A stretch of 64,000 nucleotides of DNA from Eutreptiella sp. 'Long Island Sound 2002' (taxonomy: Eukaryota; Protista; Euglenida), in assembly GCA_964036045.1 (NCBI GenBank), contig OZ038378.1, positions 1,364,001 through 1,428,000 of the forward strand, written 5' to 3'. Position numbers and translations under genes: made by a program. The notes below the pieces were generated by a model. It was not told where the DNA came from. It saw nothing but the letters and a program-made list of their open reading frames with translations, and did not search any database. Below are positions 8,170-12,526 of this stretch, one piece after another. Positions within the stretch are counted from its first letter, which is position 1. Each line of letters starts with the position of its first letter.

Positions 8170-10835
8170 TCTCTCCGTATCCTACGACTCACTCCTTTAG
8201 AAAGGAGATTCCTATACACCTCGTTACTCTCAGGACTGAGGAGGCTAGCTACTACTTCCTCATCTCTCCCCACAAATGCCGCAGTGTGCCGCCTCCACCC
8301 AGGTGGAAGCCAAGGACTTATCGGGGTAGCCGATAGGGGAGCCCCAACCCCTCGGTCCCGAGCATGGGAGCACCTACTCTCGCTTCGCTTGCCGGCAGAC
8401 TTGAGGACAAAGGACCTCATGATATCCGTAAATCACGGGGACGAAACTAACCGTATGTCACGGAGTTTGTCCGGCTCCCTTTCATACATACTTCGGTTCC
8501 AATTTATCATGGGTAAGATATCATTCGCATCCAATCCTGACTCTCTAGTTGGGGTACCAGCCTCCTGGTACGCTGCAGGCATTGCCGCGCTTGCCGGTGA
8601 AACGTTGATCACGGGCAGATCTCGCGTGAAAATTTTCCGTCCTGGTTTCACTCCGCGCATATTGACGGTCCAGGGGAGCAGCCCTCCTCCACCCAGACTT
8701 GCCGGTGTTCCTAGCCACCGGATGATCTCCTCGTTCGACTGTCCCGAAGAACCGGACAAACTCCTCACCATGTGGGTGGCCAAGCTGGTAGTCGCGTAAC
8801 GACAAGATGCTTTGACCCACAGGCTTAACGTCGCACGAGGAGAGTTCTCTGCAAGCATTGGATCGTTTCTAAGAGGATTCCGAACCAGTAATGTCGGCGT
8901 CGTACGTGCAAGATAACCCGTCACACCTTTTTCTGTGTACACTAAGCGTAGGTACTCATCCCTCACTCTACTCACGAAGAATTTAGCTGGGTTGACAACG
9001 AAGCTCAACAACTTGTAGGCTATGACGACGGCTATTCCCAACCACGGGTCGCTGACCCTGGTCCTATGGTCATCACTTTGTGCTGTCAAGTAATCGAACA
9101 CCGTGAGCCTACGCCCAACCCTCCTAACACACTCTGAGACTGCGGTTGCAATACCTATGTTGGCAATGGTGTCTATCAACGCCGTCCAGCGCCAACCCGA
9201 CACGACTCCCTTCTGTATCAAAACCTTTGACACACTACCGTCATTCATCCGTAGGTGCACGTAGCCCTTCTCACTTATCAATATTCTATATATCCCAGCC
9301 ATCACCACCAACATATCGTATTGCACACTGTGTGGTGCCCTATCTACTATCAAGTTCGTGATCTCATCTAACACTATGGGTATCATTCCCTTGCTTACGT
9401 TGTGATCCAACCGAGACTGATCGACATGTATCTTCACATTTCTTGCACTACACGCACCCACAGCTTCATGACGTTCTTGGACTTGTTGACATCAAGAGAA
9501 TACACATAGAATTACCGGCGAGCGCTGGCTCCAACTAATGTGATATATAACTCATCATTATGTACAATCTGTCGTCAGAGTTCACCTCTGCCCTCGCTTT
9601 CGCAAGCTCTCGCTTTACTATTGCTCTAGCCTCCTGCCCCACTCTTCCCTCCCCCTTCCCCGCCCTCCCGTAAGGAAACATCTGTCTCAAGAACCAATCC
9701 TTCGACTTATCCAAGTACGCCAAGGTTTTCGTCCTTCCTGTCGTCGCCTTCACATCAACTGTTGTTACTGGGACCATCGACGCACCAGTACGGTACAATA
9801 ACCAAGGCTTACTCGCGAACTGATCGGCCGTTAATGCGTTCTCGTTCGCACGCTCGAGCCCCGGAGTGACATTCAGTACATGTATCACACCCTTCCTATA
9901 GTCGGCATCGAACACACGCGTTGATAGCACACCGTCCCACCCACACATGTACTCATAGGCGGAGCGTCTACGTAGCCGACAAATGTCTTGATGTCCACCA
10001 GACACCTCCAATACCTACTCATTGCGACACCCGCCTTCTTTGCTTCATCGGCTAGCACCCCAGTCCTCTCTCTGAACGCTGTCTCTATGGGTCTTTTCCC
10101 CAAATGCAAATGGTTGTGCCATCTCAAAAGCTCTTTCTTTGCATCATCAGGTAGTCCTACATACCACAGGGTCAGATAGTGCCCTGATATTCCGGTGTAC
10201 CCCACCCAGTGTTTGTCCCTCACTAATTACCTACCGTATCGACCCTCCCTGCTCATTAACTCTTGCAACTTCAGTTCCGCCTCCATGTACTCCTGATCAT
10301 CCACCTGGTCTGCCTGATCAGTATACGTCACTGCGTCTACTATCTTCGCATATGTCTTCATATAGCACACATGTGATGCCATCTCTAACCGCCGCTCTTG
10401 ACCAACCCATCTTTTTTCACTCCTACACCACAACTTGGCATTCCTTATCGACCCGAACCAGCGTATCGCATCCATCTGGTCCAACGTCTGCCTCATGTCA
10501 TCTTCAACATTAGGGACGAAATATCCCGCTCGACGAATTGACATTCTTGAAAGACATGTCATTCCCGTCGATGTGGAAGTCCGCACCTGGAGTCATGTTC
10601 GCGACATGATTCTGACAGCGTCGGTGTCAGATCAATCTCTGTGGCAAGCAGGTAGCGAATGCAGTACTCCCTTGGTATGATGCTGGAAACTGGCCTGTCG
10701 CCACCCCCAATGTGAGTTCCTCTCCCAGTCTACCGTGGTACATACTTCCATAGGTTTCCCAGCTGTCGGCGAGCTCTTCTGTGGGTGAATTTACTGGCCA
10801 CCGCCTCCTCGCTTCCAACGCGTGTTAAACGCGAG
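8170..10835 (-). pseudogene. Viral RdRp pseudogene (about 880 codons, several stops and frameshifts)
   Basis: Colinear fragments 10730-10912, 10227-10586, 9885-10223, 9535-10011 (ARAIVKRELAKARAEVNSDDRLYIMMSY, motif F region), 8433-9461 and 8170-8420. The stops at 10227 and 8433 are in frame with the next fragment. Confidence 0.88.
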
Positions 10836-12222
10836 AATCGGCAATTGAGCGTGACAGTGGCCTTGCGGGAATAATCCTGTTGAAAAAGACGCTGGCCCGC
10901 AATTCCACACACATAGGCTCTGCTCCCAATGACCTCGATGGCGCACAGACGTTTATCCTCGATGCCTTACGCAGGACCTCGTCCATTTTGGCCCCTGTCG
11001 CAGCTTGTCCTAGCGCCGTATACACATGCAAGAAATCCACACTGTACATGGTGTAGGGATTGGCCACATCTATTTCTGCGTACACGGCATCCCTCGTCGG
11101 CCAAGCCCCCACCCTATCATCTTCCTCCATCGTGGGAGCCGCGTTCTCATACCTGAGACGGCTTTGTGATACTCTGGCGTATGGTAAAAGACTTATCGTG
11201 TCGTAGACCTCGTCGGGTGACTCGTCTTCGTCCAGACCGGTCCATAGGGCAACGTCCATGGTGGAGTTCATTGTCAACAACTGGGCTTGTGGAGGAATAT
11301 TTAGACAATACCAAATGGCATTCTTCAGTGCAGCGATCGACATACCGTCGCATACGAGTAGGATCGTGGAGGAGCCGTGATATTTCACAAACATTGGCCA
11401 TGACAGCGTCGCGTCGTCTTCCGACATGTCGCTGCCACCAGGCGACGCTGGTGTACCTAGAATGGCAGGCATCACTTGGCCTTTTGGGTGCTCGCCCCAA
11501 TAGTTGGGATTCTGCCACCGATTCTGTTCCCGCAAGGCCATCTCGAACGTGCTTTCTTGAAACAATTGCTCCACAAGCTGGAGGGAATGGTGCACATGGC
11601 GCGTGCACTCGTGCACATGGGAGTTCGCGTGCTCTTGTAGCGGGGTCCCCAAAACTAGAGGGAGATGCACTTCTAGTCGCAACCGCAGGCGTGTCAATTT
11701 TGATTCCACGACGTCGTGCAACACAGTCCACATAGGGAGAGTGTGATCCCGTGGGCGGCTGGGGGAGGCCGAGGAATCCCACGCGGGTAGGTGTTTAGGA
11801 CCAAAGTTCTCCGTGGGATACTCTAAGCCGAAGTCCGTGTAGCCCCTCTCCGCATCCAGCCCATCCATGGGGGCGGGGGCTAGTACTGGGTGGTGCCATG
11901 TATCCACCAGTGGCGCACATCGCCACGGGCACCCCTTGAGCCGCGGGTCGTAGGCACATACCGTGCATAGTCGGTGCCGTGGGTGGCCCGGTAATGGGTA
12001 TAGCACTGTGTCATCATAGCAAAGAGGTCAATGTTCGAGGTCCTATTGCGAGCGGTCAGGGAGAAGAAGTTCTCTTGTGGGGCCGCCAAGGGAGGACGTT
12101 GCTCCTTGCTCGTTCGGGATCGTCCACAAAGGTTGTAGCGATGGGGACCGCGGTGAGGTCCGGGCGGCTACAAAGAGTGGAAGCTCCGCCGGACCGTAAA
12201 CCAGCTCTGTAGGCAACCATCT
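10825..12222 (-). pseudogene. Viral ORF1 with Cys/His cluster and ubiquitin-like domain (about 11180-11400)
   Basis: 393-aa open part at 10825-12006. The same frame continues to 12222 through stops at 12028-30 and 12043-45. WPMFVKYHGSSTILL...SIAALKNAI...NIPPQAQLL aligns by eye to ubiquitin MQIFVKTLTGKTITL...TIENVKAKI...GIPPDQQRL. Confidence 0.75.
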
Positions 12223-12526
12223 TCATTTGGAGTAGTCTGTTTGGCCGGGCCCGGAGTTGTGGATGCCTTTGCCATTATGGAGGGTTGTTGTTGCCCGCCG
12301 CGGATTGGTTCATCGGTGTTCAATGAAGGCACCACCGCAATACTGCTTCCAGCATGTTGTTACCCCGACGTGGCCTTCTCGCTTTATAAGAATACACAAA
12401 GTCACACACATACACAAATACACAAACCCTTTTCGGCAGGCGATGTGTGCAAAAAAGGCGGCATACTCTTCGCGTGAACCCCACACTACCGGCGGTCGAA
12501 AGGGCGAACTATCGGTTATCCAAAGA

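What the first reader, a model, noticed from the sequence alone, without database searches (positions are those of the whole stretch)
8170..12526. Near-complete fossil genome of a small toti/giardiavirus-like virus
Seen: about 4.35 kb comprising a leader (12526 to about 12230), ORF1 and an ~880-codon RdRp with motifs F, A, B and C, cut just before its C-terminus. The minus strand begins ...GGATAACCGATAGTTCGCCC next to the junction, which may be the true 5' end. Known: RNA viruses have no DNA stage, so host reverse transcription is required. Most such EVEs are single-gene fragments. Inference: the ancestral genome can be reconstructed and seems unusually compact.
Basis: partly seen in the sequence, partly recalled or inferred. 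Interest (0 to 1): 0.8.

Follow-up and report, generated by a model that had tools for sequence, protein, structure and literature searches.

The report
Circularly permuted virus–host-repeat fossil
A decayed piece of a double-stranded RNA virus sits in what is likely an algal genome with its polymerase gene split across the two ends of the insert and a piece of a host repeat in the middle, which is likely the footprint of a virus–host DNA circle that was cut open and integrated.

Summary
The viral fossil is real, but it is not a near-complete, compact genome. On the minus strand, 10592→8170 is a broken toti-like (RdRP_4) polymerase gene. The low end of the insert stops at profile position 68 and the high end starts at position 69, so the insert is exactly circularly permuted. 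Most of "ORF1" (11261–12334, 1,074 bp) is a dispersed host repeat. Only about 670 unassigned bases precede the polymerase, so most of the capsid gene and both untranslated ends are missing. About 3.3 kb is viral or presumed viral; relatives with long intact ORFs are 5.3–10.4 kb. The insert sits at an inversion/deletion in a host repeat, with no target-site duplication, and parts were later tandem-duplicated. Estuary samples carry the same fossil and joints, not a living virus. Best reading: a chimeric virus–repeat DNA circle opened inside the polymerase gene and captured during break repair, in a probable euglenid alga.

The parts
12335..12523 (-). RdRp C-terminal part (about 62 codons, probably with an internal frame change; stops about 10 codons short of the expected end; no 3' UTR), moved to the far end of the insert
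   Evidence: Best hit of 2,054 window ORFs to a C-terminal profile, E 0.0011; 0 of 500 shuffles reach its score; 80% identity over 15 residues to P0005 784-798; 33 of 58 scoring relatives (of 143) place its first residue exactly 71 from their C-terminus
11261..12334 (-). Fragment of a dispersed host repeat family, likely a retroelement ORF (family members carry 2A-like motifs, Cys-rich motifs and a ubiquitin-like domain); same sense as the virus
   Evidence: P0211 and P0212 clusters of 56 and 53 members on many large contigs; 60-81% aa identity; diverged contigs with loose ends at 11261 and 12334; no RT domain in 19 members scanned
10593..11260 (-). Unassigned stretch, probably the 3' remnant of the viral capsid gene (inferred from position; not a dispersed repeat)
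   Evidence: 10593-11190 is covered only by near-identical contigs at 80% likeness among the rows shown; purine 0.55 and GC skew +0.10 as in the RdRp; no match to 42 ORF1 C-termini, no Pfam hit, fold unusable, pLDDT 33
8170..10592 (-). RdRp, N-terminus to just before the C-terminal part; premature stops at 10229, 9537 and 8435, frame changes near 9945 and 9480, motif C altered
   Evidence: the piece ending at 8169 aligns to C-terminal sub-profile positions 8-68 (E 0.084)
8010..8169 (.). Left flank: inverted copy of host repeat segment X (92.5% to 25904->25745)
7983..8006 (.). Left flank: inverted 24-bp segment Z that precedes the right flank in intact repeat units
   Evidence: 100% to 13436->13413 and 26707->26684
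7311..7981 (.). Left flank: host repeat segment A (90% to 25077-25747)
12527..25544 (.). Right flank: host tandem array of 2,466-bp units (99.5-99.7% alike)
593..7107 (-). Later tandem duplicates of parts of the insert: 662-2147 (=8170-9655), 3210-6230 (=8170-11190), 6230-7107 (=8778-9655), 99.2-99.5% identical
   Evidence: joints 11189->8778 and 9655->host repeat also stand in estuary contigs

Best explanation
This is a decayed, circularly permuted insert of toti-like dsRNA virus sequence joined to a host repeat fragment, and it likely entered the genome as a DNA circle that was opened inside the polymerase gene. Inferred steps: (1) a host retroelement reverse transcriptase copied the 3' ~3.3 kb of the viral plus strand (end of the capsid gene to ~10 codons before the RdRp stop); (2) this DNA became joined at both ends to a 1,074-bp piece of a host repeat, closing a ~4.35-kb circle, either directly as chimeric viral cDNA or by excision from an earlier chromosomal insertion next to a repeat copy (I put these two routes at about 45:30); (3) the circle broke at one point in the RdRp gene and was ligated into a double-strand break in a host repeat during messy end-joining that also inverted and deleted flanking DNA. 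Shown: parts of the insert were then tandem-duplicated, the reading frames are broken, and the same fossil stands in wild estuary samples. It cannot encode a working polymerase. Any present role would be as a source of antiviral small RNAs, which is untested.
For: The two ends are adjacent in the RdRp profile, 68 | 69, with no gap or overlap, each aligned on its own. The upper piece is the top hit of 2,054 ORFs, and the next three hits are the three copies of the lower end; 0 of 500 shuffles reach its score. The middle 1,074 bp is a collinear piece of a multi-copy host family with sharp borders. Flanks read A - inverted Z - inverted X - insert - R, whereas the analogue at 25077-27415 reads A-X-Y-Z-R; the longest word shared by the two flanks is 5 bases, so there is no target-site duplication. 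No contig joins 12523 to 8170 in 8 of 8 runs laid, and unbroken contigs cross each outer junction (X2 records 9 and 16), so no unpermuted copy is seen. Precedent: circular viral DNAs that are virus-retrotransposon chimeras, proposed as EVE precursors (PMC5857290, passages); RT-dependent circular DNA from a dsRNA virus (PMC8964962, abstract); circles cut and re-integrated in genomes (PMC7188851, abstract).
Against: No free circle is observed; the circle is inferred from geometry alone. The lower-end alignment is weak on its own (E 0.084-0.13). The repeat is not shown to be a retroelement: no RT or endonuclease domain in 19 family members, its DNA could not be fetched and the fold was unusable (pLDDT 32). 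The repeat piece is 10-18% diverged from listed family contigs, which fits an old genomic copy better than an active RNA template; stop density does not separate the routes (3 of 357 versus 3 of 805 codons, p 0.27). The rearranged flanks show a multi-break event, which could also swap linear pieces without a circle. Contigs show presence, not absence, of an unpermuted copy.
Confidence: 0.75

Rival explanations
1. No free circle: a linear repeat-virus insert was broken at several points and its pieces were re-ligated in swapped order during the same repair event that inverted and deleted the flanks.
For: The flanks carry an inversion, a ~780-bp deletion and a displaced 24-bp piece, so several breaks were repaired here.
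Against: It needs three joins, with both viral pieces kept in the same orientation and no base lost at the RdRp break; one opening of a circle gives this at once.
Confidence: 0.15
2. A head-to-tail array of (repeat + virus) units arose first and was trimmed at both ends, leaving one permuted unit.
For: The locus does undergo tandem duplication, and unnamed cluster members suggest more copies beyond the window (five 342-aa and two 267-aa proteins on one 1.45-Mb contig).
Against: Independent trimming would have to hit the same codon at both ends. The duplicates in the window include host flank A and share the 8170 junction, so they postdate the permutation. No 12523->8170 joint in 8 runs.
Confidence: 0.05
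3. The virus itself had a circular or end-joined RNA form, which was reverse-transcribed from an internal point; the repeat piece inserted later, replacing the UTRs and most of the capsid gene.
For: One relative, L037, assembled with a 123-base terminal repeat and permuted order, 1 of 139 loci.
Against: 138 of 139 loci show no terminal repeat; L037 is not close (rank 143 of 262); no Rfam ribozyme in the insert or in L037; a repeat insertion with a coincident multi-kilobase deletion is an extra step.
Confidence: 0.04
4. One reading: a linear, near-complete, unusually compact viral genome with its true 5' end at 12526.
For: The RdRp is present and toti-like.
Against: The 'leader' is the RdRp C-terminus and most of 'ORF1' is host repeat.
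Confidence: 0.01

Closest known systems
Toti-like non-retroviral EVEs of arthropods (e.g. planthopper ToEVEs, PMC10636211, search listing only; Scirpophaga incertulas proteins P0002/P0200/P0205)
   Same: Decayed RdRP_4-type sequence in a eukaryotic genome, among repeats.
   Different: Here the RdRp is nearly whole, permuted and fused to an internal host repeat; the host is probably a euglenid alga; no supported clade joins it to the arthropod rows.
Circular viral DNA (cvDNA) of Drosophila and Aedes (PMC5857290, passages read)
   Same: Sub-genomic viral sequence joined to host mobile-element sequence in a circle; proposed there as the precursor of EVEs.
   Different: Those are transient somatic circles of +ssRNA viruses with LTR elements, in opposite orientation in four clones; this is an inherited integrant of a dsRNA virus with a same-sense repeat of unproven class.
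BmCPV vcDNA-S7 (PMC8964962, abstract read)
   Same: RT-dependent circular DNA from a dsRNA virus.
   Different: A cypovirus in silkworm, extrachromosomal; no integration is mentioned in the abstract.
eccDNA-mediated permuted duplication (PMC7188851, abstract read; cattle KIT colour-sidedness, recalled)
   Same: A circle cut at a new point and re-integrated gives permuted order.
   Different: There the cargo is host DNA; here three quarters of the circle is viral or presumed viral.
Hubei toti-like virus 17 and unnamed giardiavirus-like metatranscriptome viruses (P0003, P0005, P0013)
   Same: RdRp motifs and size (about 800-900 codons); in relatives the RdRp follows a long ORF1.
   Different: At most 42% identity in the core; long branch with no supported sister.

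Membership tests
Toti-like dsRNA viruses (Ghabrivirales; order name recalled) | RdRP_4-type polymerase with motifs F, A, B, C | tested here: met
   motif C differs at one position from 142 of 143 relatives
Toti-like dsRNA viruses (Ghabrivirales; order name recalled) | 5' capsid ORF upstream of the RdRp | tested here: inconclusive
   Only ~670 unassigned bases remain; no homology to 42 ORF1 C-termini; fold unusable
Giardiavirus / Giardiaviridae proper | RdRp forms a supported clade with Giardia lamblia virus | not testable with these tools
   No named giardiavirus sequence was returned; nearest named row is Hubei toti-like virus 17, with no supported clade
Near-complete endogenous viral genome | Both termini, whole capsid ORF and RdRp in native order | tested here: not met
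Non-retroviral EVE | Integrated in host DNA with virus-host junctions in genomic reads | tested here: met
   Contigs cross 8170 in X2, X4 and X6 and cross 12526 in X2
Non-retroviral EVE | Decayed reading frames, not a replicating virus | tested here: met
   3 stops and 2 frame changes; no insertion or deletion listed in 4 RNA runs
LINE-mediated retroposed insert (TPRT) | Target-site duplication and 3' poly(A) | tested here: not met
   Longest shared flank word 5 bases; no poly(A) at either end; flanks rearranged
Integrated circular chimeric viral DNA | Exact circular permutation | tested here: met
Integrated circular chimeric viral DNA | Partner sequence is a retrotransposon | tested here: inconclusive
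   Dispersed multi-copy ORF with 2A-like motifs, as in trypanosome L1Tc non-LTR elements (PMC10830525, passages); no RT seen
Integrated circular chimeric viral DNA | Free circular form exists or existed | not testable with these tools
   Only contigs were available
Viroid-like circular RNA viruses (ambivirus-like; recalled) | Self-cleaving ribozymes in a circular RNA genome | tested here: not met
   0 Rfam matches at E<=1 in 7500-13500

The most novel reading that the evidence does not exclude
This is a germ-line fossil of a chimeric virus-retroelement DNA circle, the intermediate long proposed for how RNA viruses enter genomes, caught with both virus-element junctions and its opening point intact, and it is also the first sign of an RNA virus lineage infecting euglenid algae.
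Probability: 0.35. Interest if true: 0.85.

Novelty: new variant of a known kind. Interest (0 to 1): 0.66.

Why it matters
Circular virus-transposon DNAs have been isolated from infected insects and proposed as precursors of endogenous viral elements (PMC5857290). My searches found no report of an inherited insert that keeps the circle's geometry (open-access library only). This locus gives a simple signature to screen for across genomes: a gene split across the two ends of an EVE with host repeat in the middle. If the host is a euglenid, it also extends RNA-virus host range. A 2021 review states that viral infection of Euglenida had not been verified experimentally (PMC8061765, passages), and the later Euglena report concerns giant DNA viruses (PMC12455990, passages; 0 occurrences of 'RNA virus'). 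It also warns that such inserts can be misread as compact complete genomes.

Tried and rejected
No whole genome is held for this window, so copies and donors outside the window could not be searched directly. A word-based search for longer RdRp relatives gave 0 hits among 4,477 candidates; the full HMMER scan found them. PDB sequence searches gave no toti-like structure (0 hits; only 20 weak picornavirus-type 3D polymerase hits at E>=0.14). Rfam found nothing in the insert and one sub-threshold match in L037. Both structure predictions were unusable (pLDDT 33 and 32), so no fold search was run. The ESM Atlas gave no answer in six tries. A scan for the repeat's DNA found 0 relatives among 40 candidate stretches. 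An extant virus in estuary RNA was rejected: the 4 RNA runs carry the chromosomal joints, host flanks and no indels. Expression is undecided: no silent control stretch was laid on the RNA runs, and DNA carry-over is possible. A possible stop-restart overlap near 10560 (stop of a 56-codon frame overlapping an ATG of the RdRp frame, read) was noticed but not accepted, because the frames there are decayed. The stop-density count used a wrong frame for 28 codons and was corrected. Trees: 244 rows FastTree and 46 chosen rows IQ-TREE with an unsettled bootstrap, both without an outgroup, gave no supported sister. Earlier-findings look-ups by place, words and sequence were empty except.

Full report
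Observation. The minus strand of 10592-8170 encodes a broken viral RNA-dependent RNA polymerase. Pfam RdRP_4 matches the longest piece (E 9e-05). A full HMMER scan found 639 proteins at E<=0.001; apart from this locus's own product, the 149 listed are 30-41% identical. A profile of 40 intact relatives aligns in order to 10328-9945, 9936-9478 and 9488-8445 (profile positions 30-667 of 810). There are premature stops at 10229, 9537 and 8435 and frame changes near 9945 and 9480; motif C differs at one position from 142 of 143 relatives. Named relatives are Hubei toti-like virus 17, Shuangao toti-like virus, Linepithema humile toti-like virus 1 and moth EVEs. Neither tree gives the insert a supported sister; the highest core identity is 42% (244 rows; 46 chosen rows; no outgroup). 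So it is toti-like and a deep, unnamed lineage; membership of the giardiaviruses could not be tested.

The 'leader' is the polymerase's C-terminus. Several relatives hit 12522-12400 with their last ~70 residues. A profile of the last 140 columns from 143 relatives, run against all 2,054 stop-to-stop ORFs of the window, ranks the frame at 12528-12454 first (E 0.0011). The next three hits are the three copies of the piece ending at 8169 (E 0.036-0.084). The lower piece aligns up to position 68 and the viral part of the upper piece begins at the conserved tryptophan at position 69. None of 500 shuffles reaches the upper piece's score (best 8.9 against 15.3 bits). Of 143 relatives, 58 scored against it, and 33 of those place its first residue exactly 71 from their C-terminus; 2 were far off. 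The two ends of the insert are therefore neighbours in the viral gene: the insert is circularly permuted.

Most of 'ORF1' is host repeat. A search among longer proteins returned two hits, P0211 and P0212 (2 of 7,510 candidates). They belong to clusters of 56 and 53 members; 15 of each were listed, nearly all on large assembly contigs. Members match 12335-11260 at 48-81% identity. Laid at 80% likeness, 4 genomic-type runs pile diverged contigs on this stretch, with loose ends at 12334 (4 of 4 runs) and 11261 (3 of 4, among the rows shown), while 8170-11190 is covered by near-identical contigs only among the pieces shown (tables are cut). Family ORFs carry 2A-like motifs (11 of 30 proteins) and a ubiquitin-like domain (2 of 19 scanned), and some are fused in frame to unrelated genes, as expected for a mobile element. 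2A sequences occur in trypanosome L1Tc non-LTR elements (PMC10830525, passages). No RT domain was seen, so 'retroelement' is inferred.

What is left of the virus. Viral or presumed viral sequence totals 3,280 bases: about 870 polymerase codons and 668 bases upstream. The upstream stretch matches none of 42 distinct ORF1 C-termini and folded poorly; position and composition suggest a capsid remnant. Of 25 relatives with both ORFs closed, 20 have an ORF1 of 681-1,717 codons and contigs of 5.3-10.4 kb; the other 5, with 178-250-codon upstream ORFs on 2.7-4.8-kb contigs, look fragmentary and were set aside. The insert thus lacks most of the capsid gene and both UTRs, and says nothing about a compact genome.

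Insertion site. The flanks belong to a host repeat. An analogue at 25077-27415 reads A-X-Y-Z-R; the insert's locus reads A, inverted Z, inverted X, insert, R, with Y (about 780 bp) missing. There is no target-site duplication. Parts of the insert, with flank A, were later duplicated in 593-7107 at 99.2-99.5% identity. An unnamed 1.45-Mb contig holds five 342-aa and two 267-aa versions of the core ORF, against three and one in the window, so the array likely extends past the window's start.

Wild samples and host. Four estuary metatranscriptomes from four studies hold 46-57% of the sampled words. Their contigs show few substitutions, no indels, host flanks, the joint 11189->8778 in 3 of 4 runs and the joint from 9655 to host repeat in 2 of 4. 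This is the chromosomal fossil in wild populations, not a living virus; whether it is transcribed is open because no silent control was laid. No contig joined 12523 to 8170 in any of the 8 runs laid, and unbroken contigs cross both outer junctions in run X2. One repeat-family ORF (P0214) is fused to a chlorophyll a/b-binding domain whose best PDB match is chain 9vfj_2 (E 2.7e-78, against 3.8e-49 for the next entry), and 9VFJ is cited in two Euglena gracilis PSI papers. That P0214 comes from the same genome is inferred from the repeat's abundance in the host's runs. A photosynthetic euglenid host is therefore likely (about 0.8, my estimate), not shown.

Mechanism. Shown: permuted order, internal host repeat, rearranged flanks, later duplication, decay. 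Inferred: host reverse transcription (needed, since dsRNA viruses have no DNA stage; established knowledge), closure of a ~4.35-kb virus-repeat circle, one opening inside the polymerase gene, and capture at a double-strand break. The circle may have formed directly as chimeric cDNA, as in insects (PMC5857290, passages; PMC8964962, abstract), or been excised from an earlier insertion like other re-integrated circles (PMC7188851, abstract). The repeat piece's 10-18% divergence from listed family contigs leans to the second route and the absence of a visible donor to the first; stop densities do not decide (p 0.27). Shuffling of linear pieces without a circle remains possible (0.15).

Novelty. 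Toti-like EVEs, circular viral DNA and permuted re-integration are each known. Four searches of the open library showed no report of a circularly permuted non-retroviral EVE; I saw listings only for most hits, no supplements were read, and subscription journals are not covered.

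Noticed in passing
L037 1-7141: A toti-like relative from a metatranscriptome assembled with a 123-base terminal direct repeat and RdRp before ORF1, i.e. as a circle or end-joined form; 1 of 139 loci; no ribozyme found. May be an assembly or library effect.
   Followed up: partly
window 11261-12334 (family P0211-P0240): An undescribed high-copy repeat family with long ORFs (up to 1,980 aa) carrying up to two 2A-like motifs, Cys-rich motifs and, in one subfamily, a ubiquitin-like domain; no Pfam transposon ORF match.
   Followed up: partly
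window 12527-25544: Tandem array of 2,466-bp units (99.5-99.7% alike) with internal ~914-bp sub-repeats; diverged relatives at 26572-27415 and 30060-31647; present in estuary RNA runs.
   Followed up: partly
window 54400-56328 (-): Long open frame with a MULE transposase domain (E 1.1e-11), next to a 432-codon frame at 56276-57574 and 53-bp tandem arrays at 57485-58945 and 63805-63997.
   Followed up: no
window 44369-44815 (-): Weak integrase zinc-binding domain match (E 0.0015), probably an LTR-retrotransposon remnant.
   Followed up: no
window 52737-53876: 21-bp minisatellite, 54 copies, with strong strand skew.
   Followed up: no
P0214 (another contig): A decayed light-harvesting polyprotein gene read in frame into the repeat ORF, the clue to a euglenid host.
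   Followed up: yes
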